Made by a program: the position numbers and the translations under genes. Shown here piece after piece: positions 3,149-45,177 of a DNA stretch of 64,000 nucleotides. Positions within the stretch are counted from its first letter, which is position 1, and each line of letters opens with the position of its first letter. Source of the stretch: a virus. The notes under the pieces were generated by a model. That model ran no database searches. It was not told the DNA's origin and saw only the letters and a list, made by a program, of their open reading frames with translations. The stretch is taken from positions 32,001-96,000 of the IMG/VR virus record IMGVR_UViG_3300043788_000114. One strand, given 5' to 3'.

Positions 3149-6100
3149 TGGCACTAAAATTCAGAGCGCTCGACATTACGTCCCCCGTCAATCGCCTAAA
3201 AGCAGGCTTTGTCGCAATGGCCTGTAATGTTCGAGCTTATTTGGATGGCGGTTTTGCTCTCCGCAATTCGCTGACCCCGCCGTTGGTTTTAACCAACGCA
3301 GCATCGAGTCAAGTTAGCGCGGGAACTACCGGGCAAACAGGAGTAGGAGCCGCGTGGAATAACCCCGCGAATATCTTCGACACAGGAAGTGTCAATTTCA
3401 CAAATCTCCTCCTCGGAGGCGGCAACCCAACAGTATCGGAAATTCTCAATGTCACCGATCTAGGATTTGCGATCCCCGGCAGCGCGACGATTACAGGAAT
3501 CCAGTTTCAACTCCAAAGCCTTCCAGCCCTTGGCCATGGCGTCGCTATTACCTTTCAGCCAACACAAAATGGGGCGAACGCTGGAACTCCGACGACTCAA
3601 ACGCTCGGTCCCGCGCCCGGTGGACCGGTAACCATCGGTGGGCCGGGTAATCTCTTTGGATTTGCGTGGACTCCGGCGTTGATCAATGGCGCGACCGGTT
3701 TAGGGCTGAATATATCCGGAGCAGGAGGAGCCGCTCATACCTCAGCGGCTTGTGAGCTAAACTCTCTCGTCGTCACAGTGTTCTACAACACGAACATGAC
3801 GCTCATTCTGCCTGCGCCGCCGCATTCAATTCGCAGATTAAACGACTCGACTCCTAACGGACCATCGTCCGGTTACGCTCTTGTCGTTGGAGCGGGAACG
3901 GACATTTATCTCAACTCGACACAAGTTGCTTCCGGACTCTCCGGCAATCAAATTTCGCTCATTCCTTTCCGCCCGAATGCTTCCGTGCAGCCGTGGATGT
4001 ACTGGGCTGATTCGGCAGCGATGGGCAACGTCACTCTGAATACTAAATACCTCATCAATGGCAAGCCGGTGAACTTCGTTTCAAACGGCATGGGCAAGAC
4101 ACGCTCCGATGGGTTGACGTACAAAATGGGAATCGAGGAACCGCAACTCGCCCCCATTATTTCCACCGCTCCATCCAGCGTATCCGTTGGTGGTTTGTTG
4201 CAGGCAACTGACATTCCATGGACCAACTATCTCGGGCAGAACCCCGGATATAACTACGGAGAGTCGAACGGTCCACCGAATCCGGGAAGTCCAAACCCGA
4301 TAGATGGAACTCCGCCGTTTATTGTCGACGTGGCCAATGCCTCCACAGTGACAGTCACGGCCATCACTGGAACCGCGACGATCAATGGTACGTCGGCAGT
4401 ACCGACGAGTCCCGGACCAACTCCGGGATCGACAAACCCCGGTGGTTACGTGCAAGTTGGAGGAGTAGTTCCGGGAACAGTTTCCGTTGTTGTTGGTGCG
4501 TTCACGGATGGAGATGGCAATGTAGTACCTCTCGGCGTAGCGCCGCTCTACATTACATCGGTCATCGATGTGGGTGGAAACATCGGAGTGGCAATTCCCG
4601 TGCCATTTGGCGCTCAGCAGTTCCAGATTGGCATCAACTCCACGGGAAACACGTTCAATGCAAACTCGGGCTCTTTCCAGATCGAAGTTACGGTGACAAC
4701 GAATGCTCTGCCAACCGTCACATCGATTCTCGGCGACCTGACTTGCGCATATTTTGACGATTCGCCAACCTCCGGTCCAGTAGCTTCGTATATCTGGAAG
4801 AATCCGGATGATCCCGGAGGCTCGGGACCAACGCGCTCTGTCTCTGATGCGGTAGGCACAACGACAGGTGACTCCTTCATCTTCGATGCCACATTCACGG
4901 CTGGAATTCCCGGACTACCGGGAATCGGCTCGCCCACTGTACCGATGCTGTGGACAGACCTCAATCCTGATTCCGTCGCCGTAGGTTCCAATCCGATCTT
5001 TGCCGCACCACTGACGAAAACAAATCCGACGAACACACAGTTCGCCAACTTCAACTTTTGTCTTACAGGGAATATCTACTTCCCGTCTGCCGGTCTATTC
5101 ACGCTCGTCCTCACGAGCCACGATGATGTGATATGGGGAATCGGCGGCGGCGTGTCGCTGGTATCTGCCGTGGCGTCCGGCGTAGGCGAGGGTGGTGGCG
5201 TGGCAATCTCTGGATATGGCCAGACGATCACCGTGGTTGGTGGTTATCCGCTCCTTCCGAGACAAATCTACACGAGCGGATTGGGAGGAAACTACGCACA
5301 GACAACGGTAGTCGTGAGCGTTCCAGCGGCAGGCATTTACCCAATCGAACTCGACTTTGACTACTGGTTTCACTCAGGAAGAATTCTTCTGCTTGAGGGA
5401 TCGGCCACTGCTGGCGGTCCGCCGACGATCATCCCGCCTCTTCCGGCGAGCGTTAGGCAGGAGACGCAATATCGGTACGTGTACAGGTCATCGGCCACAG
5501 GAGCATTGTCGAATCCATCTCCGGAGTCAGCAGCCGAGACGGTGCCTGTCACGGCGAACACTGTCACGTCTTACTGGTCGCCCGATCCGCAGGTAGATGT
5601 TGTTGACTACTACCGCATCGATTCAGTGACATCGGATTTCACTTACGTCGCCACAGGACCTAACGACAATCTTGGACCGGGAGGAACGAATACACCGATC
5701 ACCGATTCCTTGCTGGACACTGAACTAGGATCGCAACTTCTAGAATTCGACAACTTCGAGCCATTCCCATCCATTGATCTTCCACAGAAGGGAATCTGTA
5801 ACGTCTCTGGCGGTGTCATCACATGGGTATCGGGCGGAGCTATCGGCGGAGCGTTTACAGGATTCAATATCCGCTGGCTGGGTGGAACAGTCATCCTCAT
5901 CGGCTCCCCTACGTCTCTTGCATATACACTGATCGCGCGACCAACATCGACGACGACGATCACGATTCCCGATGTTCCGGATGGAACGAATCTGGCTTAC
6001 GAGATTCCCGAACCAATTCTAGCCGCACAACCATTACCTTATGTTGACGGGCCTACGGACAATATCCCGTTTGCAAATGCAGTTGGCGATCCACTAAGAG

Positions 6101-26365: not shown

Positions 26366-27583
26366 TCATTTGAATCCCTCTCGGAACCATGCTTCCCAGC
26401 GAGGCCATAGATGTTTCCAGTCGTACCGTGGATCGAGACTCGTTCGCTTGCCGATCCATTCGTTCGCCTTCGTCGCCCAATCTTGAGCATTGTAGACAGG
26501 GCGCTTGGTCGCGAACGATCCTTGATAGTGAAACGCGATAGGATCAACTTGCATTTCCTTCGGAACGAAATCAGCGGCTCCAGCGTAACTCCCCGTCACC
26601 ACGGGAGTCTGACACGCGAGGCTCTCAGCCAACGGCAGTCCGAAACCTTCAGGACCTATGCCTAGCGTCAGATCGCAGGCCGAGAATGCTTCCGCCAGTT
26701 GTTCATCGGCAATCTGCGTCAAACTAATGATCGCCCTGTCGAGAATTCCATAATCGACTAGGAGTGCGGGGAGACTCCAGAATCGCTCGTATGCATCCGT
26801 GTGCAGCCATAGCCTCACTTTTCGGTCTCTGGCAATGATCGCTGCCGTTTCTATACCGAGCGCGAAATTTTTGCGGTCCTGATTCGTCGCGCAAATTCCG
26901 ATCAGGCAGGTGTCATCAGTGATCGGTCCGCTATCCTTCATGATCTGTTGGCCGCTAGTGATCTGGAAAAACATGTGGCGGCAGAGTTGACGATGCCTCT
27001 CGTAGAACGTTTCTCTGTCTACCCCATGCGGGATACTACTTAAATGCCGCTTCGATGATTCCTCGTCTCCGATAGTCCGCCGCAAAACATCTTCGCCAAA
27101 CTCACCATAGCCAAGCAGCGTATCGAACCCGAGCGCGGTTCGCATGAGTGGGAATGACAACTTGTCGTTCGGCCCTGAGCCGTCGATTGGCGCGTAGCCA
27201 AAAAGCTTGAACGGACGTTTGATGAGCCATTGACGCAACGCCGGGTTCTTGAGCAGAGAAGATTCCGAGAGTCTTGGCTGAGCGATCCAATCCAAGCGGG
27301 ATAAATCCCAAATCGTGAATACAATCCCAGACTCATTACCAGCAAAATCGTCCCAGACTTCAGGCAAAGTCGGGATCGCCCATTCCTGCATTCCCTCAAT
27401 GACGTAGTTCGTGAACCCAAAACGCCGTGAGCCGGGTCCACCCCATCCGAGAACGCCAACCCGATAAATATCGCTTAGGTGCTCATGCACCCTTGTCGTG
27501 ATGTCACGGCATATTCTTCCGAGGCCGCTTGATGACGATGGGCTGTCGGAGATGAAGAGGATTGGCGTGGGTTTTTCGGCCAT
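26366..27583 (-). CDS. Glycosyltransferase family 4 (GT-B)
   Basis: SDSP...SGLGR, IPHGVD, NQDRKN, EGFGLPLAESLAC. Confidence 0.85.
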   Translation of the reverse strand: MAEKPTPILFISDSPSSSSGLGRICRDITTRVHEHLSDIYRVGVLGWGGPGSRRFGFTNYVIEGMQEWAIPTLPEVWDDFAGNESGIVFTIWDLSRLDWIAQPRLSESSLLKNPALRQWLIKRPFKLFGYAPIDGSGPNDKLSFPLMRTALGFDTLLGYGEFGEDVLRRTIGDEESSKRHLSSIPHGVDRETFYERHRQLCRHMFFQITSGQQIMKDSGPITDDTCLIGICATNQDRKNFALGIETAAIIARDRKVRLWLHTDAYERFWSLPALLVDYGILDRAIISLTQIADEQLAEAFSACDLTLGIGPEGFGLPLAESLACQTPVVTGSYAGAADFVPKEMQVDPIAFHYQGSFATKRPVYNAQDWATKANEWIGKRTSLDPRYDWKHLWPRWEAWFREGFK

Positions 27584-27683
27584 GCGGTTGACGATAGCGC
27601 CGAAGTGAAAGCGTGTCAAGCGTCACCAGCGGTCAACGCGTGGATAGTTGACAAAAACCAAGCAGCGCGATACCGTGCAAATG

Positions 27684-27896
27684 ATGAATGACGATCAGAT
27701 CGTCCGGCTCATTCGAGGCAAACAGGGAGAGCAATCGCTCCGCGCCTACGCATCGCAGATAGGTGTTTCAGCAGCTTATCTGTCGGATGTGCTGAACGGG
27801 CACAGAGGGCCGGGGAAGAAAATGCTGAAGTTTTTTGGAATAGAAAAGACGCGCAGGGTGACGGTCACCTACGCGGCGACAAGAAAGAAGAAGTGA
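27684..27896 (+). CDS. Cro/CI-type HTH regulator, probably leaderless
   Basis: SLRAYASQIGVSAAYLSDVLNG; TTGACA(27648)-17-TACCGT ends 7 nt before ATG. Confidence 0.8.
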   Translation: MNDDQIVRLIRGKQGEQSLRAYASQIGVSAAYLSDVLNGHRGPGKKMLKFFGIEKTRRVTVTYAATRKKK

Positions 27897-27902
27897 TAGG
27901 AG

Positions 27903-28055
27903 CTAGATCACGTGCAGCAGGTAGAGAATCAGGAGGATCACCAGAATGGTTCCCAGCCCGATCCCACCACCGGCACCCGCACCCCACTGGGTGTGGCCCC
28001 AGTAGCCGAAGCCGCCGCCGAACAGCAAGATCAACAAGATAATGATGATCAGCAT
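27903..28055 (-). CDS. DUF3309-like small membrane protein (not in ORF track)
   Basis: MLIIIILLILLFGGGFGYWGHTQWGAGAGGGIGLGTILVILLILYLLHVI. Confidence 0.7.
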   Translation of the reverse strand: MLIIIILLILLFGGGFGYWGHTQWGAGAGGGIGLGTILVILLILYLLHVI

Positions 28056-28231
28056 TAGTGACCCATCCCAAGGTGCAGCGGGAGGATGCCGCTAAACAGC
28101 GCGGATGCTACCCAAAACGCCAACCCAGCGGCAATGAGCCTGCCGAACCATGGGCTGGGCTGAGGCTGGGGATTCCAAATGGCAGCGATAGCGAACAGTA
28201 CAAACGCGAAAACCAAAAGGACGATTGACAT
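28055..28231 (-). CDS. Small two-TM membrane protein (not in ORF track)
   Basis: GAGGTG SD; MSIVLLVFAFVLFAIAAIW...RLIAAGLAFWVASALF; TAATG coupling. Confidence 0.65.
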   Translation of the reverse strand: MSIVLLVFAFVLFAIAAIWNPQPQPSPWFGRLIAAGLAFWVASALFSGILPLHLGMGH

Positions 28232-28455
28232 AGATCACCTCAAGGCAATTGGATGCCGCTTTGCGGCAAATCGTCTGTATAATTCTGCTCAAGTATGGCA
28301 ACACCCTGTTTCCAAAAGCCTGACTCGAATCCACCGGTTTGCGGCGTTCACAACGAACGTCTGGTGCCGGAACAGATTCGCGTGGACGACATGAAGATCG
28401 ATTGCCTGCGCTGCCCGAGAACCGGAAGCGTGGTGAAGGATTCGAAAAAAGAGAG

Positions 28456-28484
28456 TTGACAGGATTTCTGGACCGTGAGAGGAT
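28456..28484 (+). promoter_or_regulatory. Sigma70-like promoter of tRNA array 1
   Basis: TTGACA-17 nt-GAGGAT (weak -10), 7 nt before leader GTG. Confidence 0.6.
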
Positions 28485-28491
28485 TTGAACC

Positions 28492-28560
28492 GTGAAGACT
28501 TTGTGCCTCAGTTCGCTCTCCTCGTATAGCTCATTACTGAGCGGCAGCGGGGGTTCGTGA
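28492..28560 (+). CDS. Attenuator leader peptide 1 (MKTLCLSSLSSYSSLLSGSGGS)
   Basis: 14 consecutive Leu/Cys/Ser/Tyr codons; followed by antiterminator/terminator and Leu/Cys/Ser/Tyr tRNAs. Confidence 0.8.
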   Translation: MKTLCLSSLSSYSSLLSGSGGS

Positions 28561-28589
28561 ACTGAGTCCAGAGTGGAATTCAGTGAAGC

Positions 28590-28622
28590 GGCCTCCGAGA
28601 AATCGGGGGCTTTTTAGTTTTT
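28590..28622 (+). terminator. Attenuator terminator 1
   Basis: GCCTCCGA-GAAA-TCGGGGGC then TTTTTAGTTTTT. Confidence 0.85.
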
Positions 28623-28624
28623 GC

Positions 28625-28709
28625 GCGAGAGTGGCGAAATGGCAGCACGCAGCGGTCTTAAAAACCGTTGGAGAAATCCGTGGGGGTTCAAGTCCCCTCT
28701 CTCGCACCA
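28625..28709 (+). tRNA. tRNA-Leu(TAA)
   Basis: Cloverleaf, loop CTTAAAA, CCA. Confidence 0.9.
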
Positions 28710-28710
28710 T

Positions 28711-28785
28711 GAGCCTGTACCCAAGTGCTAAGGGAGCGGTCTGCAAAACCGTGATGCGGTGGTTGGATTCCACTCAGGCTCTCCA
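28711..28785 (+). tRNA. tRNA-Cys(GCA)
   Basis: Cloverleaf, loop CTGCAAA, U73, CCA. Confidence 0.9.
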
Positions 28786-28796
28786 AGTTTAAATGT

Positions 28797-28886
28797 GGCC
28801 CCGCTGGCGGATTGGCCCAGCCACTAGTCTTAGGAACTAGCGTCCTTAGCCGGACACTGTGGGTTCGAATCCCACCGGGGCTACCA
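28797..28886 (+). tRNA. tRNA-Leu(TAG)
   Basis: Loop CTTAGGA, long V arm, CCA. Confidence 0.9.
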
Positions 28887-28893
28887 AAGTTTT

Positions 28894-28980
28894 GCCGATG
28901 TGCTGGAATTGGAAGACGGACTGCACTCAAAACGCAGCGCGAGCAATCGCATGGGAGTTCGATCCTCCCCATCGGCACCA
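28894..28980 (+). tRNA. tRNA-Leu(CAA)
   Basis: Loop CTCAAAA, long V arm, CCA. Confidence 0.9.
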
Positions 28981-29031
28981 GATTAAGGCCGTATTAGGCG
29001 ACGAACTAAATTTAGTCGTGCGGCTAATTTT

Positions 29032-29119
29032 GGAGAGTCAACCGTTGAGGCTGACGGCGCGGTTTGCTAAACCGATGGTTCCCTTTGGGAATGGGCATCG
29101 TGCGCTCGGCTCTCCGCCA
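29032..29119 (+). tRNA. tRNA-Ser(GCT)
   Basis: Loop TTGCTAA, long V arm, G73 CCA; atypical T loop. Confidence 0.85.
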
Positions 29120-29141
29120 TGTTTGTGCAGTAAACGTGTTT

Positions 29142-29229
29142 GGGGAGTAAACCTGTCGGGCGACAGGGCTCGTCTGGAAAGCGATGCGGACCCATCGGGT
29201 TTGCGTTTCGAGTACGCTGCTCCCCGCCA
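29142..29229 (+). tRNA. tRNA-Ser(GGA)
   Basis: Loop CTGGAAA, long V arm, G73 CCA. Confidence 0.85.
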
Positions 29230-29230
29230 C

Positions 29231-29318
29231 GGAAGCGTTGGGCATTTGGCAGGCCCACCCCGCTCGAAACGGGACACACCGCAAGGTGTTGGGGATTCGA
29301 CTTCCTCCGCTTCCGCCA
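29231..29318 (+). tRNA. tRNA-Ser(CGA)
   Basis: Loop CTCGAAA, long V arm, G73 CCA. Confidence 0.9.
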
Positions 29319-29324
29319 CTGTTT

Positions 29325-29414
29325 GGATACGTTAGGCATGTGCCAAGCCTACCCCGTTTGAAGCGGGACGCTCCTGAAAGGGACTTGGGTGTTGGACTCA
29401 CCCCGTATCCGCCA
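29325..29414 (+). tRNA. tRNA-Ser(TGA)
   Basis: Loop TTTGAAG, long V arm, G73 CCA. Confidence 0.85.
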
Positions 29415-29419
29415 GATGT

Positions 29420-29506
29420 GCAGCGTATGACCGGGCGCACGGTCACCGCTCTGTAAAAGCGGCGCTCATTCGAGCATGGGGAGTTGAAGCCTCTCACGCT
29501 GCACCA
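29420..29506 (+). tRNA. tRNA-Tyr(GTA)
   Basis: Loop CTGTAAA, long V arm, CCA. Confidence 0.85.
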
Positions 29507-29561
29507 GAGATGTATAATTGGGGTGTCAGGTGCGTGAACACCCGGCTTACGCCAACCGGAA

Positions 29562-30404
29562 ATGAGGTTTCCGATGACACCCCAAGAGCAAAGTGTACCA
29601 GCGCCAACGAAGTGGTGCCAGAAGCATCTACACGAAATCTCAATATCTACGAAAAGATGCCAAGAATGCCGGAAGGCGTATTTTCGGAAATACAGAACGC
29701 TTAACAGAGAGCACCTAAATTCTCTTGATCGAGAACGGTATCGAAAAAAACACGAAGGCCAACTTCGAAAGTATAATGGCTCTCCGGGCGGTATCGCCAG
29801 AGCGACCAAATCACGTCGCGAGGCTCTCGATAAGTATTACTCCAATCCAAAGATTTGCAAAAATTGCGGAGGCCCAATAGTCGTCAAGGATGGCGAGAAG
29901 ATTCCGCAAGCAAGGAAGCGAACCTTTTGCACACGGCGGTGCGCTGCCATTTTTAACAATCATTTACGGAAAAAAGAACGAGCGTGCAAGACCTGCGGGG
30001 GAGCAGTACGCAGAACAAGCAAGAGAATGCGTAACTACTGCGACGACTGCTTAAATGTGAAACTCCTTGCGATTACTGGAAAAATATCGAAACGTGCGTT
30101 ATTTACACGGAGAAATGGGTACCAATCGGCACGGTCGCAAATCCGAAGACACGCAGAGACGGTGTTCAATCGCTCCGGAAAGAAGAAGGTCTGTGCCATT
30201 TGCGGGTATAGCCTGTACGTTGAAATCGCTCATTTGCGAGCGGTGGCCGATTTTTCTGAGGACGCGCTCATTGAAGAGATCAACGCGGTAGGTAACTTAA
30301 TAGCCTTTTGCGCCAATCATCATTGGGAATTTGACAACGATAAACTTGTCGAGGATAATGTAACGGCGGAGTGGACTGGAGATGGTTCCAGCTTGGTCTC
30401 ATAA
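29562..30404 (+). CDS. HNH endonuclease with Zn fingers
   Basis: Several CxxC; CAICGY...EIAH...NLIAFCANHHWEFD; 3' end overlaps tRNA-Met. Confidence 0.8.
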   Translation: MRFPMTPQEQSVPAPTKWCQKHLHEISISTKRCQECRKAYFRKYRTLNREHLNSLDRERYRKKHEGQLRKYNGSPGGIARATKSRREALDKYYSNPKICKNCGGPIVVKDGEKIPQARKRTFCTRRCAAIFNNHLRKKERACKTCGGAVRRTSKRMRNYCDDCLNVKLLAITGKISKRALFTRRNGYQSARSQIRRHAETVFNRSGKKKVCAICGYSLYVEIAHLRAVADFSEDALIEEINAVGNLIAFCANHHWEFDNDKLVEDNVTAEWTGDGSSLVS

Positions 30405-30442
30405 GCCAAATCACGGCGGTTCGATTCCGCTCTCCGCAACCA
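30365..30442 (+). tRNA. tRNA-Met(CAT), initiator-like 1:72 mismatch
   Basis: Loop CTCATAA, unpaired G1:A72, CCA. Confidence 0.8.
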
Positions 30443-30497
30443 TTTCATTGGAGGTTCCCATGACAGATCACTAGCGAAAGGTTGGTGAGAAACTGTC

Positions 30498-30710
30498 ATG
30501 GGAAACGCCCACGCGTGGCGTCACCGGACTGGACGTGGTACTCCCTGTCCTACCGGTTGTCTCTATTGCAAGATGCGTCCCAAGGAAGGCGAACCGGGAG
30601 AGCGGCACAAGAACTACGCCAACAAAAACTCTCGCGGTCGTCGCACTCCACGGGGCAAGCAGAACAACAAGAAGCGCAAGAGTCCAAAGCTCAAACTAGG
30701 AGTCCAATGA
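30498..30710 (+). CDS. Small basic Cys-containing protein
   Basis: 70-aa ORF, start codon buried in a 12-bp hairpin. Confidence 0.5.
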   Translation: MGNAHAWRHRTGRGTPCPTGCLYCKMRPKEGEPGERHKNYANKNSRGRRTPRGKQNNKKRKSPKLKLGVQ

Positions 30711-30759
30711 TCTTCGATCCAGAATTCGGATGGTGGAGGAGTTGGATCAGTATCGATCT

Positions 30760-31225
30760 TGGCGCGTAAGCGCTGAGTGGAGGCCGGGGGCCGCAAGGCA
30801 CTGGGTCCGTTCTCGGACGTAAACCGAGTGGTGGAGGCGGCGGCAACGCCGCCCCTAGTTTTCGAGTACGCATGTAGAAGGTGATGGAGTTTGATTTCGG
30901 ACGTGGGTTCAACTCCCACCGGCTCCACCAAGAAGCACTTGAACGAGAAGCGCCGACTTACGATCATGAACACAACGTCTCTGTTTTCGGCTAACTCAAA
31001 AAAGCGAAGCTCGTTGGCTGTCGCTCAATGGTTCGAGTGTTTCTTTGTGGGGCCGTCACGGTTTCGACGGAATTAGAGGACATCACGCAGTTCATGCCGG
31101 ATGCTGTGGCCCACGAAACGGGACAACAGAAAACTAGGTGCAGAACCATTTGCACTGCCAATGGCTGCTTAAACACCAGTCATTCGAGGGTGGCCGCAAT
31201 ACTCGTCAAAGAACCATGCGGCAAC
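30760..31225 (+). ncRNA. ssrA: Circularly permuted (two-piece) tmRNA; outer ends approximate
   Basis: 3' tRNA-like end GGTTCAACTCCCACCGGCTCCACCA (to 30930) lies upstream of 5' end GGGGCCG..GGTTTCGAC (31049); G3:U70 pair; tag frame AEPFALPMAA* at 31140-31172. Confidence 0.85.
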
Positions 31226-31232
31226 AAATTCT

Positions 31233-31388
31233 ATGCCCGAGAATCGGAGAAAAAAGCAGCGGAGAAGGAAAGTCCTGCGACAAATCGAGCGGCGCAGGCA
31301 GTTCCAGCGAGTCAATGAAATCCTGTTGCGCTCCGCTTTCGGGGTAGAATGGAAAAAGTACCGCCAGCGTGGAATCGCGGTGCCGTAA
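31233..31388 (+). CDS. Small Arg-rich protein (not in ORF track)
   Basis: MPENRRKKQRRRKVLRQIERRRQFQRVNEILLRSAFGVEWKKYRQRGIAVP. Confidence 0.4.
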   Translation: MPENRRKKQRRRKVLRQIERRRQFQRVNEILLRSAFGVEWKKYRQRGIAVP

Positions 31389-31393
31389 GTTTC

Positions 31394-31469
31394 GGGGTCG
31401 TAGCTTAATTGGAAAAGCGCTTCCTTGTCACGGAAGAAGTCGAGGGTTCAACTCCCTTCGATCCCGCCA
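31394..31469 (+). tRNA. tRNA-Asp(GTC)
   Basis: Loop TTGTCAC, G73 CCA. Confidence 0.9.
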
Positions 31470-31660
31470 AGTTTGGAGATGACATGTCCAAGAGATGGAG
31501 AAAGCGCCAAGCGAGGATGGCAGCGACAGCCGCCGCGCAGCCTGCTGTTACGGAGCAACCTGCGGCGCAACAGACAGCACCTCCGCCCGCTGCCCAGCCT
31601 GAACGCGTACAGAAGATTCCTACGTGGCCATGGCGTGCGGTAGGGTAGAGAAAAGTTTTC

Positions 31661-31735
31661 GTCCCTGTCTGCTAGAGGCGAGGCATCCGCGTTCTCATCG
31701 CGGCAACATCGGTTCGAATCCGATCAGGGACGCCA
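31661..31735 (+). tRNA. tRNA-Glu(CTC)
   Basis: Loop TTCTCAT, CCA. Confidence 0.9.
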
Positions 31736-31739
31736 AGTT

Positions 31740-31834
31740 GCGCGGCGGCGAGACAGCCGTCAGTATTTGCGTCGAGTACATCTGAGCTACCCGCTATGGA
31801 GGTAGACGCAAGTCGATCATCTGACTAGCCGCGC
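31740..31834 (+). ncRNA. Unidentified structured RNA between tRNA-Glu genes
   Basis: Nested helices GCGCGGC/GCCGCGC, GTCAG/CTGAC, TTGCGTC/GACGCAA, CTACC/GGTAG. Confidence 0.5.
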
Positions 31835-31843
31835 TTCGTTTAT

Positions 31844-31917
31844 GGGGTCGTCTTCTAACGGTAGGAAAGCTGATTTTCGCTCAGCTAATGCCGGTTCAAC
31901 TCCGGTCGGCCCTTCCA
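31844..31917 (+). tRNA. tRNA-Glu(TTC)
   Basis: Loop TTTTCGC, CCA. Confidence 0.85.
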
Positions 31918-31938
31918 ATTTTCATCCCGGAGGAACCC

Positions 31939-32178
31939 ATGCACAGCGTCTATGTGGAATACGATGGCGGCATCAACGCCGCGACCGATGAGGCAATCTA
32001 CGCTGCGGTAGGTTATGTGTTCGACGGCCAAATAAAGTGCGACTCGGGTTGCATGATTGGCGGTACGCAAACTCGCGATCTGGTCTTCCGATTTGAGGAT
32101 GGCGAGCAAGCCGCCAAGGCCGCAAGGAAACTGCGGGAACTGTCGGATGTGAGAGTCAACACGGCGATGGTGGCATAG
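31939..32178 (+). CDS. Hypothetical protein
   Basis: GGAGG SD before ATG 31939. Confidence 0.6.
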   Translation: MHSVYVEYDGGINAATDEAIYAAVGYVFDGQIKCDSGCMIGGTQTRDLVFRFEDGEQAAKAARKLRELSDVRVNTAMVA

Positions 32179-33974: not shown

Positions 33975-34931
33975 ATGTTTGAGCCTAAAACACTTGCCGA
34001 AGCTATTCGCTACTACAGCGATGAGCAGACGTGTATCGACGTGGTTGCAGGTCTCCGCTGGCCAGATGGCAAGCCGGTATGCCCGAAGTGCTGGACGGCT
34101 GAGGGCGAGCGCAAGCACTACTGGCTCAAGACCCAAAAGCGGTGGAAGTGCTATGCCTGCCGCAAGCAATTCTCGGTCAAGGTGAACTCGATTTTCGAGG
34201 ATTCGGCCCTCAAACTGTCGGATTGGCTTATTGGCCTCTGGATGCTTGTGAACTGCAAGAACGGCGTGAGTAGCTATGAGCTATCGCGGGCCACGGGGAT
34301 CGCTCAGAAGTCAGCGTGGTTCGTTCTACAGCGCCTTCGTTACATCCTCAAGGCAGTTGACCATCGGCCCTTGGGAACGCCGGGGCCGGTCGAGGTAGAC
34401 GAATGCTATCTCGGCCCCGACGCACGCACGATGCACGCGGACAGGCGAGCCAAGTTGCAACTGGCGACAAACGGCTACGCGAAGAAAACGGCTGTGATCG
34501 GTCTGCTCGATCGCAACACGCGGCAGGTCCGAGCTGAGGTCTTACCGGAAGTCACACGCGATGTGCTGCAAGCGCGGATTCTCAAGCATTGCGGCAAGGG
34601 AACGACCGTGTACACCGATAGCCACGCCGGATACGACAACATGGATTCGCAGCGTTTCGTCCACGAAACCGTGAATCACATGATGGAGCATGTACGCGGC
34701 GATGTTTCGACGCAAGCGATTGAGAATTTCTGGTCGTGCCTCAAGAGAACACTGACCGGGACGTACATCGCGGTCGAGCCTTATCACTTGGACCTGTACC
34801 TGAATGAGCAGGTCTACCGCTTCAACAATCGCGTGAATAAAGACGATGGTCAGCGTTTCAGAAAGGCACTGAGCATGATCGGGGATCGCAGACTGACTTG
34901 GAACCGGCTTACCGGGAAGGAGGGGGCCTGA
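33975..34931 (+). CDS. IS1595 (ISXO2-like) transposase
   Basis: RWP...CPKC...CYACRKQFSV Zn ribbon; VEVDECY, VYTD, VNH, IENFWS.LKR, YLNE..YRFN. Confidence 0.95.
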   Translation: MFEPKTLAEAIRYYSDEQTCIDVVAGLRWPDGKPVCPKCWTAEGERKHYWLKTQKRWKCYACRKQFSVKVNSIFEDSALKLSDWLIGLWMLVNCKNGVSSYELSRATGIAQKSAWFVLQRLRYILKAVDHRPLGTPGPVEVDECYLGPDARTMHADRRAKLQLATNGYAKKTAVIGLLDRNTRQVRAEVLPEVTRDVLQARILKHCGKGTTVYTDSHAGYDNMDSQRFVHETVNHMMEHVRGDVSTQAIENFWSCLKRTLTGTYIAVEPYHLDLYLNEQVYRFNNRVNKDDGQRFRKALSMIGDRRLTWNRLTGKEGA

Positions 34932-35116: not shown

Positions 35117-35397
35117 TTCGCTGCCGGTCTCGCGATCACGGCATGGAGCGTCACTTCGTCATCGGTAAAAGAATAGAGCACGGTCAAATCCGGCTTATGC
35201 CACGCATGATCCCCGCTTTGCGAATACACCCAAAACCGTCCCTTGAAGTGAGTGCCTTTCTCTGGCTTATGCGCTAGCGTCCATTCCAGCGAACGGTAGG
35301 CCATCTCCCCGCGCGCAAATTCTCTTGTCGCACGGTCCATATCGACAGAAAATTCTCTGTCTTGGACCACCTGTCGCAATTTAGGATTCGTTTCCAA
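35113..35397 (-). CDS. Putative RelE/ParE-like toxin
   Basis: 94 aa, L...PEKG...LTVLYSFTDDEVTLHAV, directly downstream of Panacea-like gene. Confidence 0.5.
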   Translation of the reverse strand: METNPKLRQVVQDREFSVDMDRATREFARGEMAYRSLEWTLAHKPEKGTHFKGRFWVYSQSGDHAWHKPDLTVLYSFTDDEVTLHAVIARPAAK

Positions 35398-35917
35398 AGC
35401 GCGAACTTATCACAGAATCGGCCCACGCGCGATCTTCATCTGTGATAGCTCGTGGTGTTGCCATGATAGCAAAGAGAGGAATTGTTTCACCCATTTCAGC
35501 TAGTTTCCACCACTCAGCGTGGGTCGCATCGCTGATAGATGCGGCTGTGTGAGAGCATACCGTGTCAGTCATTTTGTTAATAAACTCCAGATCGTCAGAA
35601 GTGAACAGACTTAGATCTGGCTCTGTTTTAGTTATGTATTCCGTCCGGAAGTAATTGACCACCCTTACGGTTCGAATTTCCAGCGCCCCCTCTTCCACTA
35701 ATTCCTCTAGGAGTGGGAGCATCGCGGCCACAACAGGACCATTCTTTTCCTTAATAAAGCGCGCGCCTGTCAACGCGTGCCCGTTCGTCTTCACGTAGTG
35801 ATTTGTCTCGACGTACCAAATCACCTTGTTAAGTTTCACTGCCCCCAGACGCGCAGGATTCTCCCGGCAACGTGAACACACGTAGTGCACGAGTCTTTTC
35901 AGTTTTGTCCTGTTCAT
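35381..35917 (-). CDS. Panacea/SocA (DUF4065) antitoxin-like protein
   Basis: VKLNKVIWY...LTGARF....GPV...ISDATH...W. Confidence 0.8.
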   Translation of the reverse strand: MNRTKLKRLVHYVCSRCRENPARLGAVKLNKVIWYVETNHYVKTNGHALTGARFIKEKNGPVVAAMLPLLEELVEEGALEIRTVRVVNYFRTEYITKTEPDLSLFTSDDLEFINKMTDTVCSHTAASISDATHAEWWKLAEMGETIPLFAIMATPRAITDEDRAWADSVISSRFGNES

Positions 35918-36220
35918 CTCTTTGCCGCCCTTCCGCGTCCTAGCGAACGTGGCTCCATAAAGGGGGTTTCCCAAGTTGTGCCACGTTTGCTGGACGTGAC
36001 TACAACACGTTTTGCTTGCAGGTCAATTTAGCAGCAGATTTCCACACTTGCACGCAAAAATCAGCTAGCTGCTAATTTGACGCGTCGAGTGGGGAAATAG
36101 CTTCGCCGTTCGTTCGCCCACATGGTTCGCTTTTGGGCCGGGGAAACCTGTCCTCAATTCGACTCCTCTTTTATAATACCCTTTTAAGGGGGATTTCAAG
36201 GGTTATTTCAAGGGGGGTTT

Positions 36221-36808: not shown

Positions 36809-37420
36809 ATGGCTGCAATCGATATGGCTGTGTATATGGCAGAGCGCCGGAAGAATCGGCGCGATAAACTGATTGCGATGTCGGGCGGGAGATGCATCAA
36901 GTGTAATTCAACCGACGATCTCAATTTTGACCACAAAGACCCGAAGGATCGCTCATTCCGATTGACTGGTAAGGCGCTGGATGGTTCGTGGGAAAAGATT
37001 CTTAAAGAGTGGCGAAAATGCCAGTTGCTTTGTAGGGTTTGTCACCTTCGGAAGACAAAAGAAAATGACGAGTACGGCGAACCGCCGAACAAGGGCGTTT
37101 CGAAATGGGGAGAAGTTCTTCCTGAGCACGGATGTGAAGCGGCTTACGCGCATGGTTGCAGATGCGATGAATGCTGTAAAGCGAGATACGAAGCGCGAGT
37201 TCGTCGCGGCGAATTGAAAGGTATCCGTGGACCACGAGGAGCAAATAATCCGAAGGGCGTCATCAAACACGGAACGCGCTCCGGATACCAAGCGGAGTTG
37301 AGACAAGGTTTAACTGCTTGCGATGAATGCAGAAAAGCGAACGCGGAAGAGACGCGGCGGCGCAAGCAAAATGAAAAGTTTGTTCCGAGGGAACCAGACG
37401 GTACGGTAGCGCACTGTTAA
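36809..37420 (+). CDS. HNH endonuclease
   Basis: GGRCIKC...LNFDHKDP...KCQLLCRVCH; HG...Y..GC.C..C repeats; overlaps tRNA-Asn. Confidence 0.85.
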   Translation: MAAIDMAVYMAERRKNRRDKLIAMSGGRCIKCNSTDDLNFDHKDPKDRSFRLTGKALDGSWEKILKEWRKCQLLCRVCHLRKTKENDEYGEPPNKGVSKWGEVLPEHGCEAAYAHGCRCDECCKARYEARVRRGELKGIRGPRGANNPKGVIKHGTRSGYQAELRQGLTACDECRKANAEETRRRKQNEKFVPREPDGTVAHC

Positions 37421-38094: not shown

Positions 38095-38171
38095 GGTATG
38101 GTACGGCCCGGTGATGTGAGCCGCGGCGGGGCATGGCAAGGCTTGGTATGGTCAGGTAGGGTGTGGCATGG
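38095..38171 (+). repeat. GGNNN pentanucleotide-periodic tract
   Basis: GG at exact 5-nt spacing in 14 of 16 units. Confidence 0.8.
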
Positions 38172-38716
38172 GCAGTTTAATGCGTAGATCGGTGCTTCAG
38201 TTGAACGCTTCACTAGAAGCGATTCGCATTATTTCTGCAAAGAGGGCTTTGACTTTGTTGACTAAGGGCAAGGCCCTCACTGAGGTTTCGACGGGGATTG
38301 AGATTTATCCCGGCGTGTTCTTGCCTAGCGTGATTAGGCTTCGGCACTACGCGAGGGTTCCGCATAAGAGGCCGATTCCTTCGAGGAAGAATATCTTTGT
38401 CCGCGATGGGAACCGTTGTCTTTACTGTGGGGCCAAGGGACCGAAGGTTACTCTTGAACTTGAGCATGTTATCCCGAGGTCAAGAGGAGGACAAGGGTCG
38501 TGGGACAACTTGGTTTCGGCGTGCCACGAGTGTAACCAGAAGAAGGGTGATCGTACACCACAGGAAGCTGGAATGACTCTGATTCATCGTCCTTTGCCAG
38601 CGACGGTACACACAAACCGTTTCGTGCTTAAGCAACTTGGGGAAGAAATTTCTGAGTGGAGTCCATTTTTGTGGCAGGACAACAAGGGCGACACTCGCTT
38701 TCAGTTTGTGCATTAG
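38168..38716 (+). CDS. HNH endonuclease (McrA-like)
   Basis: VLQLNAS...PSVIRL...RKNIFVRDGNRCLYCG...EHVIPRSRGG..SWDNLVSACHECNQKKG. Confidence 0.9.
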   Translation: MGSLMRRSVLQLNASLEAIRIISAKRALTLLTKGKALTEVSTGIEIYPGVFLPSVIRLRHYARVPHKRPIPSRKNIFVRDGNRCLYCGAKGPKVTLELEHVIPRSRGGQGSWDNLVSACHECNQKKGDRTPQEAGMTLIHRPLPATVHTNRFVLKQLGEEISEWSPFLWQDNKGDTRFQFVH

Positions 38717-39620: not shown

Positions 39621-40158
39621 TTTGTCGATGGTGAAGTTTACGGATACTTCTCTTCCAAAGAAAACCTCTGTGAGCGTTTGTTCCTCGACAAAGATTTGCG
39701 GTTGGTGTAGTTTCAGTTACTTCTTAATCAGCAGGTCACGGGTTCGAGTCCCGTCAAGCAGCAATGCTTGTAGCTCAGTTGGTAGAGCAGCCGAGGCGAA
39801 AGCCAGTACCCTGAAGCGCCTGTTCCGCCGCAATAAAGTTCTCCGGTAGTGAAGAGGACGGTTACTTCACTCGAAATGAAAAACAACCGTTTTCGCTTGT
39901 TCTCCGGGGATTAAGTATGAGCCGTAGTGGTCGTAAGGGTTACTTCTTGGTTCGATTCCAAGGTTGGAAGCAATTCCTACCTGCCGATTGGTCGGCTACC
40001 CCTTGCAAATGTTCTCGGCTCTCTAAGTTCGGGTTGGTGTAGGAAACAGTTACTTCGCCTGTGGAGCGAGTAGTTCGGGTTCGAATCCCGGCGTCTTCTT
40101 CGGAAGATGTAGTGTAATGGCAGCACGCTTACGTCACTGTTCCGTCTGTTCCGCCCGA
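39621..40158 (+). ncRNA. Five tandem Y-RNA-like (YrlA-like) RNAs: 39621-39692, 39696-39833, 39840-39910, 39919-40021, 40029-40158
   Basis: Each has paired ends and shared TRGTG, GWTACTTC and TGTTC motifs; units 2 and 5 (4 partly) hold T-arm, capped acceptor-like stem, D-arm; adjacent to Ro60 gene. Confidence 0.75.
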
Positions 40159-40220: not shown

Positions 40221-41645
40221 ATGCGTACAAACGTAGCAGAAAAGAAGGCGCTCATCTACACGCACGAGGGCGCAGTGGCGGTGTTCATCAACCCCGTCGA
40301 TCAGCTTCGCCGCTCTGTCATGGCGAACATGTTATGGGAGGACGAGTTCTACGAGGATGGCCAGTCCATTGCAAAGCGGATTCAGGAAACGACCGCCGAA
40401 ATCCTCAAGCAGAAGAACGGCGCGCAGACCGTGGCGGACATTGCGTTTGAGGCCCGCACGAAGATGAAGCTGCGTCACGTCCCGTTGCTTCTATTGGTTT
40501 CGCTCATCCGTGCGAAGACCGATCAGACACGGAAGGTTGTGGCGGAAGCCATCGCGCGTGTGGTCCAGCGGCCAGACGAGATGGGTGAATTGATCTCGCT
40601 CTACTGGAAGCTGAATGACAAGCGTGCCATGTTGCCGCACCAGATGAAGATCGGCCTCGCGGCGGCGTTCCAGAAGTTCGATGCCTACTCGCTCGGAAAG
40701 TGGAACTCGGATGCGGCGGCGGTGAAGCTGCGCGACGTCCTGTTCTTGACGCACGCGAAGCCGAAGGATCAGGCACAGGCAGAACTCTGGAAGAAGTTAG
40801 CGGAGAAGACGCTGGAGTCGCCGGATACGTGGGAGGTGGCTCTCAGCGGCGGTGCTGACAAGAAGGAGGCGTTCACTCGTCTGCTCGCCGAGGAAAAGCT
40901 GGGTGCGCTGGCGCTGCTCCGAAATCTGCGGAATATGCAGCAGGCCGGTGTCGACGTTGAGGCGATCCGCAAGGGTCTCGGAACGATGAAGACAGAGCGT
41001 GTTCTTCCCTTCCGCTTCATCACGGCGGCAAAGTACGCTCCGCAGTTGGAGCCTCAGCTTGAGCAGGCCATGTTCCGGTGCCTCGCAAGTCAGGAGAAGT
41101 TGACGGGCAAGACAGTCTTGATCGTCGATTGCTCGGGATCGATGCATGGCGGAATCTCTGCCAAATCCGAACTGGACCGTCTCAGCGCGGCTGCTGCATT
41201 GGCTATGCTGGTGCGTGAGGTCTGCGAGGATGTTGCCGTGTACGCGACGGCGGGTGACGATGGTCGGCGCATCCACGCGACGATGCTGGTTCCTCCGCGT
41301 CGTGGTTTCGGTTTGCGTGATCTGCTTTCCTACGAGAGCACGAGCCGCAAGATCGGCGGAGGTGGAATCTTCTTGAAGCAGGTGATTGAGTACGTCCGCA
41401 AGGAAGAGAAGGACACGGCGGACAGGATCATCGTCATCACCGACGAACAGGACTGCGATCTGGTAAACAAGCCAGCAAGCGCCAAGCCATTCGGGAAGAA
41501 CAACTACCTTATCAACGTGGCTAGCTTCAAGAACGGCATCGGCTACGGAGAGTGGGTCCACATCGACGGCTGGAGTGAGGCGATCTTGGATTACATCCAG
41601 CAGTACGAGCGGTTGCAGGAAACCGGCAATGAGATTTCTGCCTAA
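40221..41645 (+). CDS. rsr: Ro60/TROVE domain ribonucleoprotein (Rsr-like)
   Basis: THEGA, EFYEDG, LRHVPL, DAYSLGKW, LRDVLFLTHAKP, TWEVALS, ALLRNLRNM, LPFRF, vWA DCSGSM and ITDEQ. Confidence 0.9.
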   Translation: MRTNVAEKKALIYTHEGAVAVFINPVDQLRRSVMANMLWEDEFYEDGQSIAKRIQETTAEILKQKNGAQTVADIAFEARTKMKLRHVPLLLLVSLIRAKTDQTRKVVAEAIARVVQRPDEMGELISLYWKLNDKRAMLPHQMKIGLAAAFQKFDAYSLGKWNSDAAAVKLRDVLFLTHAKPKDQAQAELWKKLAEKTLESPDTWEVALSGGADKKEAFTRLLAEEKLGALALLRNLRNMQQAGVDVEAIRKGLGTMKTERVLPFRFITAAKYAPQLEPQLEQAMFRCLASQEKLTGKTVLIVDCSGSMHGGISAKSELDRLSAAAALAMLVREVCEDVAVYATAGDDGRRIHATMLVPPRRGFGLRDLLSYESTSRKIGGGGIFLKQVIEYVRKEEKDTADRIIVITDEQDCDLVNKPASAKPFGKNNYLINVASFKNGIGYGEWVHIDGWSEAILDYIQQYERLQETGNEISA

Positions 41646-44538: not shown

Positions 44539-45177
44539 ATGTCTCTGAGCCTTGTCCCAATGCCGCTTCCGCCGCAGCCGTCTTTCCTGAATCCCAAGCG
44601 CAAACGACTCTGGGAAAAGTACAACGGCAAATGCCACTGGTGCGGATGCGAAACGCGGTTGGTGAATGACACAGCGCCGGATAAGGCAACCATCGATCAC
44701 ATCATCCCGCGCTACAAAGGCGGCACAAACGATCCCGCAAATCTGGTAAATTCCTGCAATCTTTGCAACAACCGGCGAAACTACGAAGATCATTTCGGAC
44801 TTGCCGAAGGCACCTTGTTAGGGAAGTACAAGGGAGGCCAGAGCAACACGGAACGCAGGGCGGCGCGGCGCGCGCAACTGAAGCACATCGCTCTAACCGG
44901 TGACGAAAAACGGGCGATCCTCGAAAGACTCGACGCTGGGAAGACACAACCACAACCACAGCCGCAAGCACCGATTCAGACGCGTCCGCCAGCGGCCCGC
45001 TACAGCACGGAGGAGGTCCTTCGCGAGCAGCGCGATCAGGCGCAGAAACGCATCGTCGAATTGCAGAAGGAATTGGATCGAGTGCAGGCCATCGCGGCGA
45101 CGCAGGAAAAAGAATTGAAGTCGATCACTGTGGTGGGGCTTATCCGGAAGCGGATCGCCGAGTGGCTTTTGTCTTGA
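44539..45177 (+). CDS. HNH endonuclease with C-terminal coiled coil
   Basis: KCHWCG...TIDHIIPRYKGG...NLVNSCNLCNNRR. Confidence 0.85.
   Translation: MSLSLVPMPLPPQPSFLNPKRKRLWEKYNGKCHWCGCETRLVNDTAPDKATIDHIIPRYKGGTNDPANLVNSCNLCNNRRNYEDHFGLAEGTLLGKYKGGQSNTERRAARRAQLKHIALTGDEKRAILERLDAGKTQPQPQPQAPIQTRPPAARYSTEEVLREQRDQAQKRIVELQKELDRVQAIAATQEKELKSITVVGLIRKRIAEWLLS

What the first reader, a model, noticed from the sequence alone, without database searches (positions are those of the whole stretch)
28456..29506. Attenuator 1: Leu/Ser/Cys/Tyr leader with classical 1:2, 2:3, 3:4 pairings
Seen: codons 4-17 are TTG TGC CTC AGT TCG CTC TCC TCG TAT AGC TCA TTA CTG AGC. The array is Leu(TAA,TAG,CAA), Cys, Ser(GCT,GGA,CGA,TGA), Tyr. 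CTCAGTTC (28507) pairs with GAACTGAG (28559). Alternatively GGGGGTTCG and ACTGAGTCC (28549-28569) pair with GGAATTCAGT and CGGCCTCC (28575-28596), which removes the terminator's 5' arm. Five different Ser codons are used, which suggests sensing of isoacceptors rather than just the amino acid.
Basis: partly seen in the sequence, partly recalled or inferred. Interest (0 to 1): 0.88.

Follow-up and report, generated by a model that had tools for sequence, protein, structure and literature searches.

The report
Leader-peptide attenuator gating phage tRNAs
A soil phage puts its block of leucine, serine, cysteine and tyrosine tRNA genes behind a tiny test gene spelled in those four amino acids and wired to a switchable transcription stop, so it probably makes these tRNAs only when ribosomes read those codons slowly.

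Summary
At 28456-28624 lie a promoter, a 22-codon ORF starting 7 nt after the -10 box, a long hairpin, and a strong intrinsic terminator that ends 3 nt before the first of nine tRNA genes: Leu x3, Cys, Ser x4, Tyr. Codons 4-17 are all Leu, Ser, Cys or Tyr. This is the only such run in six frames of the 138.5-kb genome, and all nine anticodons have a codon in the ORF.

Folding with a ribosome parked on codons 2-15 gives an antiterminator that takes 8 of 9 bases of the terminator's 5' arm. A ribosome at the stop codon, or no ribosome, leaves the terminator free.

Thirteen of 15 related contigs, counting this genome, carry the same layout with strongly diverged sequence. Their leaders stay rich in the four amino acids, and the three-way pairing is kept through changed bases.

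The best reading is a trp-style ribosome-mediated attenuator whose output is tRNA genes. Sensing of single isoacceptors is not shown by this window alone (P 0.33-0.40) but has family-level support (p 0.0013). No RNA data exist.

My paper searches found no account of such control of tRNA genes. The scan found the same kind before, on arrays 2 and 3 of this genome and in other phage genomes.

The parts
28456..28461 (+). -35 box TTGACA
   Evidence: TTGAC[AT] is conserved at the same place in 11 of 11 leaders examined.
28479..28484 (+). -10 box GAGGAT after a 17-nt spacer, with TG at -15/-14
   Evidence: A at position 2 and T at position 6 in 11 of 11 leaders; TG in 10 of 11.
28492..28560 (+). Leader ORF of 22 codons (MKTLCLSSLSSYSSLLSGSGGS). 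The GTG start lies 7 nt after the -10 box, so the mRNA is probably leaderless.
28501..28542 (+). Run of 14 Leu/Ser/Cys/Tyr codons (codons 4-17), the proposed sensing codons
   Evidence: the only such run in six frames of the genome; 9 of 9 anticodons covered.
28507..28525 (+). Segment 1, the 5' arm of the 1:2 hairpin
28547..28566 (+). Segment 2, the 3' arm of the 1:2 hairpin. It holds the G-rich last codons and the stop codon, and it is also the 5' side of the antiterminator.
28548..28597 (+). Antiterminator (2:3), -26.1 kcal/mol, with an inner hairpin at 28561-28584
28590..28611 (+). Intrinsic terminator hairpin (3:4), 9 pairs, GAAA loop
   Evidence: One search gives -15.6 kcal/mol.
28612..28622 (+). 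U tract of the terminator, ending 3 nt before the first tRNA gene
28625..28709 (+). tRNA-Leu (TAA)
28711..28785 (+). tRNA-Cys (GCA)
28797..28886 (+). tRNA-Leu (TAG)
28894..28980 (+). tRNA-Leu (CAA)
29032..29119 (+). tRNA-Ser (GCT), found only at the lowered ARAGORN threshold
29142..29229 (+). tRNA-Ser (GGA), found only at the lowered ARAGORN threshold
29231..29318 (+). tRNA-Ser (CGA)
29325..29414 (+). tRNA-Ser (TGA), found only at the lowered ARAGORN threshold
29420..29506 (+). tRNA-Tyr (GTA)

Best explanation
This is a ribosome-mediated (leader-peptide) transcription attenuator that gates a nine-gene phage tRNA block.

Transcription starts at or just before GTG 28492, and a ribosome loads on the nearly leaderless mRNA. 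The outcome depends on how fast the ribosome reads the ORF.

- Fast reading: the ribosome reaches the stop codon 28558-28560 and covers segment 2. The 3:4 terminator forms and RNA polymerase stops 3 nt before tRNA-Leu.
- No translation at all: segment 1 pairs with segment 2, and the terminator forms again.
- Slow reading of any Leu, Ser, Cys or Tyr codon in the run: the ribosome parks on segment 1. Segment 2 then pairs with segment 3 before segment 4 is made, the terminator cannot form, and polymerase reads into the tRNA genes. The new tRNAs restore decoding speed and shut the switch again, which is negative feedback on tRNA supply.

Shown here: the anatomy, the alternative pairings in silico, the composition match and the conservation. 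Inferred: the transcription start, translation of the ORF, stalling, read-through and the feedback.
For: 1. Anatomy. A promoter, a 22-codon ORF and a terminator lie directly before the array, with no room for another promoter because the U tract ends 3 nt before the first tRNA.

2. Composition. Codons 4-17 are all Leu, Ser, Cys or Tyr, the only such run in the genome. All 9 anticodons of the array have a codon in the ORF. The same leader covers only 1 of 12 and 4 of 8 anticodons of the phage's other two arrays, and their own leaders cover 12 of 12 and 8 of 8.

3. Switch. With the ribosome's A site on codons 2-15 the minimum-energy fold is the antiterminator, at -24 to -33 kcal/mol and taking 7-8 of 9 arm bases. 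From codon 17 to the stop codon it collapses to -2 to -14 kcal/mol. This holds for assumed ribosome reaches of 11, 14 and 17 nt. Only 4 of 300 shuffles match it.

4. Conservation. Of 15 contigs holding the start of this array, counting this genome, 13 have the leader and terminator. Leader ORFs are only 48-76% identical between lineages, yet they keep 11-16 Leu/Ser/Cys/Tyr codons among 18-26. They cover 10/10, 9/9, 10/11, 8/8, 9/9 and 6/6 anticodons of their own arrays.

5. Compensatory change. Segments 2, 3 and 4 differ in sequence between lineages but stay complementary. In the 10 relatives folded, 0-5 of 300 shuffles reach the antiterminator.

6. Promoter layout. TTGAC[AT], a 17-nt spacer, nAnnnT, then a start codon 6-10 nt later is found in 11 of 11 leaders. 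The same promoter-to-start spacing occurs at other genes of this phage.

7. Precedent. Leaderless leader peptides predicted to attenuate tRNA-synthetase and amino-acid genes are described in Deinococcus deserti (PMC4007540, passages read).
Against: - The terminator stays the equilibrium fold at all 23 ribosome positions (8-9 pairs). It beats the antiterminator by 2.4 kcal/mol once complete, so the switch has to be kinetic.
- The two CTC codons have no strict-wobble reader in this phage's array. They fit only if tRNA-Leu(UAG) reads all four CUN codons, or if they are left over from an ancestor with Leu-GAG, as in relative L061.
- Given the peptide, covering 9 of 9 anticodons is not surprising (P 0.40).
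- Codons 2 and 3 (Lys, Thr) also lie in the sensitive zone but belong to another array.
- The start is GTG, while the 10 relatives examined use ATG. As I recall, GUG is a poor leaderless start in E. coli.
- Two related contigs (L073, L092) carry the array with no leader at all, so the tRNAs can be expressed without it.
- Relative L076 keeps Cys and CUN codons in its leader without matching tRNAs in the array stretch seen.
- The host is unknown.
Confidence: 0.78

Rival explanations
1. It is a general gauge of translation rather than of particular tRNAs. Any slowing of elongation, such as host shut-off, ribosome-targeting toxins, antibiotics or amino-acid starvation, parks ribosomes in the leader and opens the array. 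On this reading the Leu/Ser/Cys/Tyr spelling is inherited bookkeeping and carries no isoacceptor resolution.
For: Stalling at any of codons 2-15, including Lys and Thr, gives the antiterminator. Isoacceptor coverage and codon diversity are not significant for this window alone (P 0.40, P 0.33). The Anabaena tRNA operon is induced by translation-targeting antibiotics in general (PMC10272220 abstract; PMC8421152 passages).
Against: Three leaders in one genome each match their own array and not the others. That is pointless for a general gauge. The composition is kept through 48-76% sequence divergence. Codon diversity is raised across lineages (Fisher p 0.0013 over 8 lineages). The rare codon TTA, 5% of Leu codons in this phage, is present in 10 of 11 leaders.
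Confidence: 0.12
2. It is a separate small gene with its own promoter and a fixed, somewhat leaky terminator. The tRNAs are made by constant read-through, and the alternative pairings have no regulatory role.
For: The terminator is the equilibrium structure in every state. Two relatives express the array without any leader.
Against: The peptide's order of residues is not conserved, only its composition, so a folded protein product is unlikely. The three-way pairing is kept by compensating changes in 11 of 11 leaders folded and beats shuffles. The stop codon always lies in or after segment 2.
Confidence: 0.06
3. It is an RNA switch that needs no ribosome. A tRNA, as in a T-box, or a protein would bind the leader RNA and choose between terminator and antiterminator, and the open frame would be incidental.
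For: The leader is highly structured (z -3.65). The codons could in principle pair with anticodons.
Against: No Rfam family matches 28456-28624, even at E up to 1. A start codon at a fixed distance from the promoter, an open frame and an in-frame stop next to segment 2 are kept in the 12 related contigs whose leaders I saw, even though the sequences differ. There is no long similarity between the leader and the tRNA genes.
Confidence: 0.04

Closest known systems
Leader-peptide attenuators of enterobacterial amino-acid operons (trpL, hisL, leuL, pheL; multivalent thrL and the ilvGMEDA leader). Named from recall; the trp mechanism is as summarised in PMC4007540, passages read.
   Same: A promoter, a short ORF rich in the relevant codons, mutually exclusive 1:2, 2:3 and 3:4 hairpins, an intrinsic terminator before the first gene, and a stop codon next to segment 2. 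As in the multivalent leaders, several amino acids are sensed.
   Different: The output is tRNA genes, not biosynthetic enzymes, so the loop closes on tRNA supply itself. Four amino acids and nine anticodons are sampled in a single leader. The mRNA is probably leaderless, with no Shine-Dalgarno sequence. The element belongs to a phage.
Leaderless leader peptides predicted to attenuate tRNA-synthetase and amino-acid genes in Deinococcus deserti (PMC4007540, passages read). The pheST attenuator of E. coli is a further example, named from recall.
   Same: The leader peptide starts at the transcript's first bases (5'-AUG or 5'-GUG). The regulated genes belong to the translation apparatus.
   Different: Those elements control synthetase or biosynthesis genes and each senses one amino acid. 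Here the tRNA genes themselves are controlled.
The silent long tRNA operon of Anabaena PCC 7120, induced under translational stress and repressed by the RHH protein TrcR (PMC8421152, passages read; PMC10272220, abstract read)
   Same: An accessory tRNA array is kept off and switched on when translation is impaired. HNH homing endonuclease genes lie in or near the array.
   Different: Control there is by a DNA-binding repressor at the promoter. The words attenuat-, leader and terminator occur 0 times in PMC8421152. Here control is by a translated leader and a terminator.
T-box riboswitches (named from recall)
   Same: A terminator/antiterminator decision that reports on the state of tRNA.
   Different: A T-box binds uncharged tRNA directly through one specifier codon and needs no ribosome. 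No T-box or other Rfam family matches here.

Membership tests
Ribosome-mediated (leader-peptide) transcription attenuator | A short ORF with a start codon directly behind a promoter and upstream of the regulated genes | tested here: met
   GTG 28492 lies 7 nt after the -10 box. The ORF has 22 codons. The same layout is found in 11 of 11 leaders.
Ribosome-mediated (leader-peptide) transcription attenuator | A cluster of codons for the amino acid(s) that the regulated genes serve | tested here: met
   14 consecutive Leu/Ser/Cys/Tyr codons, unique in the genome. 9 of 9 anticodons are covered.
Ribosome-mediated (leader-peptide) transcription attenuator | An intrinsic terminator between the leader ORF and the first regulated gene | tested here: met
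   28590-28611 plus a U tract to 28622. The first tRNA starts at 28625.
Ribosome-mediated (leader-peptide) transcription attenuator | Mutually exclusive 1:2, 2:3 and 3:4 pairings, selected by the ribosome's position | tested here: met
   In silico only. The antiterminator forms only before the 3' arm of the terminator exists, so the switch is kinetic. Shuffle control: 4 of 300. Compensatory changes are seen in relatives.
Ribosome-mediated (leader-peptide) transcription attenuator | A stop codon placed so that a terminating ribosome blocks segment 2 | tested here: met
   The stop codon 28558-28560 lies inside segment 2. With the A site at the stop codon the remaining RNA folds at only -2 kcal/mol.
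Ribosome-mediated (leader-peptide) transcription attenuator | Read-through depends on leader translation and on the supply of charged tRNA | not testable with these tools
   This needs a transcription-translation assay or data from infected cells. No RNA run is listed.
T-box riboswitch | Conserved T-box sequence and stem I with specifier-loop architecture (Rfam model) | tested here: not met
   No Rfam match in 28400-28624 at E up to 1 or at gathering score.
TrcR-type repression of tRNA arrays (Anabaena) | Direct-repeat operator in the promoter and an RHH repressor | not tested
   I searched for no operator or TrcR homologue. The attenuator anatomy does not exclude additional promoter control.

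The most novel reading that the evidence does not exclude
The leader is an isoacceptor-resolved gauge of the tRNA pool. It carries at least one codon for each of the nine tRNAs behind it. The loss of any single one, for example through a host anticodon nuclease fired as anti-phage defence, would then stall the ribosome and switch on exactly the block that holds the replacement. With the two sister attenuators, the phage would have three independently inducible tRNA rescue modules. That would make it a sensor-coupled counter-defence rather than a constitutive tRNA supplement.
Probability: 0.35. Interest if true: 0.9.

Novelty: new variant of a known kind. Interest (0 to 1): 0.8.

Why it matters
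Phage tRNA genes have been explained as codon-usage supplements or as replacements for host tRNAs cut by defence nucleases (PMC10264068, PMC11555353 and PMC12409363; abstracts seen in the listing). How phages regulate these genes is, as far as my searches show, not described.

An attenuator whose output is the very tRNAs that its leader tests would be a direct homeostatic loop on tRNA supply. It would be the first use of the trp-type mechanism for RNA genes. It would also give a simple, testable readout of which tRNAs a phage expects to lose.

The element is also compact, about 170 nt. It needs no protein factor, which could make it useful as a synthetic sensor of decoding speed.

Six paper searches found no account of leader-peptide or attenuator control of tRNA genes. 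They covered leader peptide, attenuation, tRNA genes and phage; phage-encoded tRNA and attenuator; tRNA operon, transcription attenuation and leader peptide; tRNA genes, antiterminator, ribosome stalling and bacteriophage; tRNA gene cluster, leader peptide and terminator; and the Anabaena operon. Subscription journals and supplementary files were not searchable.

Tried and rejected
- **Equilibrium folding with masked 5' segments** did not remove the terminator. I therefore moved to co-transcriptional snapshots.
- **RNA evidence.** No RNA holder is listed for 27000-32000. I did not use read laying, so nothing can be said on expression.
- **Named phage records** gave only short tRNA-Leu matches in cyanophages and no relative of the leader.
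- **A second viral pattern scan** gave 16 stretches but no new relative.
- **Ten further terminase-bearing contigs** were searched with the array DNA. One of them held it.
- **Alignment-based covariation.** The MAFFT alignment A1 of the switch region was not structurally consistent for L059, L064 and L076. I did not run the count of structure pairs or build a covariance model, and compared the folds sequence by sequence instead.
- **Automatic terminator picker.** It chose the wrong hairpin for L064 and for L101 and L102. The rows for those three from those calls are void. I redid them with the arms named.
- **Wrong offsets.** One search used wrong offsets for leaders 2 and 3, and one search replaces it.
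- **Host.** The terminase finds only 37%-identical stretches in two metagenome-assembled genomes, one labelled Acidobacteriaceae and one Chthoniobacterales. That is too distant to name a host.
- **Leader as a decayed tRNA gene.** Rejected. Only imperfect 11-17-nt matches exist between the leader region and the array.
- **Missing tRNA in relative L062.** By my own reading of the printed sequence, the 100-nt gap holds a Ser-like gene with a UGA anticodon, as its leader's TCA codon predicts. ARAGORN at -ps75 calls that stretch Arg(acg), so this stays unconfirmed.
Full report
**What the window is.** The window is bases 32001-96000 of a single 138,516-bp virus record with 54% G+C. The record has a terminase and a major head protein. 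All its tRNA genes lie in the window, together with a permuted tmRNA. Seven soil metagenome runs hold parts of the stretch, the best 26% of the sampled words. The host is unknown.

**Check of the observation.**
- The ORF 28492-28560 reads GTG AAG ACT, then 14 codons for L C L S S L S S Y S S L L S, then GGC AGC GGG GGT TCG TGA.
- The array behind it is Leu-TAA, Cys-GCA, Leu-TAG, Leu-CAA, Ser-GCT, Ser-GGA, Ser-CGA, Ser-TGA, Tyr-GTA. Six of these are called by default ARAGORN. Three Ser genes are called only at the lowered threshold. Rfam's tRNA model sees only the first four, so the Ser and Tyr genes are unusual in sequence.
- The terminator 28590-28611 has 9 pairs, a GAAA loop and a tail with 9 T in 11 bases. 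That tail ends 3 nt before tRNA-Leu.

**Is it more than chance?**
- Across all six frames of the genome there is exactly one run of 14 or more Leu/Ser/Cys/Tyr codons, and it is this one.
- Of 156,228 stop-free 21-codon windows, 88 cover all nine anticodons by strict wobble. Only 14 have 14 or more codons read by the array.
- The phage has two more units of the same build, with leaders starting at 36594 and 42982. Each leader covers all anticodons of its own array: 9/9, 12/12 and 8/8. Each covers few of the others: 1/12, 4/8, 4/9, 3/8, 3/9 and 6/12.
- For arrays 2 and 3 I used only the tRNAs that ARAGORN called at -ps90, leaving out uncertain calls and the odd Arg genes noted by another reader.

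**The switch.**
- Without a ribosome, the 60-nt hairpin 28507-28566 (-30.4 kcal/mol) ties up segment 2 and the terminator arm is left in weak local pairs only.
- With the A site on codons 2-15 and the RNA made only as far as the terminator loop, the minimum-energy fold is an antiterminator spanning 28548-28597. It holds 7-8 of the 9 bases of the terminator's 5' arm at -24 to -33 kcal/mol.
- With the A site from codon 17 to the stop codon, the antiterminator is gone.
- The result is the same for assumed ribosome reaches of 11, 14 and 17 nt.
- Once the 3' arm is present, the terminator wins by 2.4 kcal/mol. It is the equilibrium fold for every ribosome position. The decision must therefore be kinetic, as in the classical attenuators.
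- Dinucleotide shuffles of the stretch between the ribosome and the arm reach the observed coverage and energy in 4 of 300 trials.

**Relatives.**
- The terminase finds 57 viral loci at 26-82% identity.
- Five of five long records searched hold tRNA arrays. Four of them have the same order, Leu-TAA, Cys, Leu..., Ser x4, Tyr.
- Pattern scans and one more record added further contigs.
- In all I saw the start of this array on 15 contigs, counting the window's own genome. Thirteen have a promoter, a Leu/Ser/Cys/Tyr-rich ORF and a terminator before it. In one of these (L093) an HNH endonuclease gene has been inserted between the attenuator and tRNA-Leu. Two (L073 and L092, one type) have all tRNAs in a single array directly behind a protein gene, with no leader.
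- I folded 11 of the 13 leaders. L071 has the same leader as L061, and L093 was read but not folded.
- Leader ORFs of different lineages are 48-76% identical, about as diverged as the tRNA genes beside them. All keep 11-16 Leu/Ser/Cys/Tyr codons among 18-26. Residue order is shuffled rather than conserved.
- Anticodon coverage of the relatives' own arrays is 10/10, 9/9, 10/11, 8/8, 9/9 and 6/6. For the four short metagenome contigs (L090, L095, L101, L102) the arrays are cut off, so I did not score them.

**Compensatory change.** In every one of the 11 folded leaders, segment 2 lies in the last codons of the ORF. It pairs either with segment 1 in the codon run or with the 5' arm of the terminator. 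The sequences of these segments differ between lineages. For example, a G5-rich segment 2 faces a CCUCC arm in the window, GGCUCG faces CGAGCC in L059, and GAGGCU faces AGCCUC in L060 and L062. Shuffle controls out of 300:

| Leader | Shuffles reaching the observed antiterminator |
|---|---|
| L059 | 0 |
| L060 | 1 |
| L061 | 1 |
| L062 | 1 |
| L064 | 0 |
| L076 | 1 |
| L090 | 3 |
| L095 | 0 |
| L101 | 2 |
| L102 | 5 |

**Promoter and start.** All 11 leaders have TTGAC[AT], a 17-nt spacer, a -10 box with A at position 2 and T at position 6, and a start codon 6-10 nt later. Ten of the 11 also have TG at -15/-14. There is no room for a Shine-Dalgarno sequence, so the leader mRNA is leaderless or has at most about 3 untranslated bases. 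In this phage the same promoter-to-start spacing is found at three other genes: 27648 (+), 33411 (+) and 27619 (-). Leaderless leader peptides for attenuation have been described from mapped transcription starts in Deinococcus deserti (PMC4007540).

I tested this by holding the peptide fixed and redrawing synonymous codons from the phage's own usage, taken from 62 long ORFs and 23,960 codons.
- Full coverage of the nine anticodons then occurs in 40% of trials.
- The observed 9 distinct Leu and Ser codons among 14 occur in 33% of trials.
- So this window alone gives no support for isoacceptor sensing.
- Across relatives the diversity is higher than expected: Fisher p 6.5e-5 over all 11 leaders and 0.0013 over 8 lineages.
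- TTA, only 5% of the phage's Leu codons, occurs in 10 of 11 leaders.
- These leaders share ancestry, and I applied this phage's codon usage to all of them, so the p-values are rough.
- Two CTC codons have no strict reader in this array. The near-identical leader of L061 sits before an array that does hold Leu-GAG and Leu-CAG. The window's phage may therefore have lost those genes while keeping the codons.

**Comparison with what is known.**
- The mechanism fits the leader-peptide attenuator family on every feature I could test. Dependence on translation could not be tested.
- It is not a T-box or any other Rfam family.
- The nearest published biology I found is the silent long tRNA operon of Anabaena, which is induced under translational stress. 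It is controlled by the repressor TrcR (PMC10272220, abstract). The paper describing the operon contains no mention of attenuation, a leader or a terminator (PMC8421152, term search).
- Six full-text searches gave no account of attenuator control of tRNA genes.

**Earlier findings of the scan.** Earlier notes report the same kind of element at arrays 2 and 3 of this genome and in other phage genomes. I used them as leads only. From them I tested the three-leader layout, the leaderless spacing and the Anabaena pointer myself.

**Verdict.** The feature is real and conserved. It is very probably a functional attenuator that makes transcription of nine tRNA genes depend on how fast Leu, Ser, Cys and Tyr codons are decoded. 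It is a new variant of a known kind. Experimental proof is entirely lacking.

Noticed in passing
window 40221-41645 (+); low-threshold tRNA-like calls at 39678-39762, 39891-39971 and 41295-41382: A Ro60/TROVE plus vWA protein (Pfam TROVE 1.5e-11) sits between the tRNA arrays. Odd tRNA-like calls nearby might be Y-RNA-like partners.
   Followed up: no
window 30331-31263: A near-consensus promoter (TTGACA, 17 nt, GATAAT) lies 5 nt before an odd tRNA at 30365 (ARAGORN '???', Rfam 34.5 bits). A permuted tmRNA (RF04321, 75 bits) and Asp, Glu, Glu tRNAs follow. This block has no leader ORF or terminator in front.
   Followed up: partly
window 29562-30404, 36809-37420, 38168-38716, 44539-45177; L093 about 1260-1790: HNH endonuclease genes are scattered between the tRNA blocks. 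In relative L093 such a gene lies between the attenuator and tRNA-Leu.
   Followed up: partly
window 27648 (+), 33411 (+), 27619 (-): Other genes of the phage also have TTGACA, a 17-nt spacer, TAnnnT and then ATG 6-7 nt later. This suggests that leaderless mRNAs are common in this phage. The HTH gene listed from TTG 27648 probably starts at the ATG 7 nt after the -10 box.
   Followed up: partly
window 33975-34931 (+) and 35381-35974 (-): An IS1595-family transposase (Pfam 2.7e-34) and a SocA/Panacea antitoxin-domain protein (8.9e-13) lie inside the tRNA region of a phage genome.
   Followed up: no
L073 3641-8800 and L092: A more distant relative carries about 39 tRNA genes as one uninterrupted array in the same isotype order, with no leader or terminator in front. 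Splitting into attenuator-headed blocks therefore looks like a later invention of a subclade.
   Followed up: partly
window 29032-29506: The four Ser tRNAs and the Tyr tRNA escape Rfam's tRNA model even at E up to 1. Three of them also escape default ARAGORN. All end in an encoded GCCA or CCA. Their T arms look unusual.
   Followed up: no
L076 about 4045-4230 and 4405-4580: In this relative, two stretches of about 180 nt inside the Ser block read as short protein-coding inserts, not tRNAs. Cys and the other Leu tRNAs were not found in the stretch seen, although the leader keeps their codons.
   Followed up: partly
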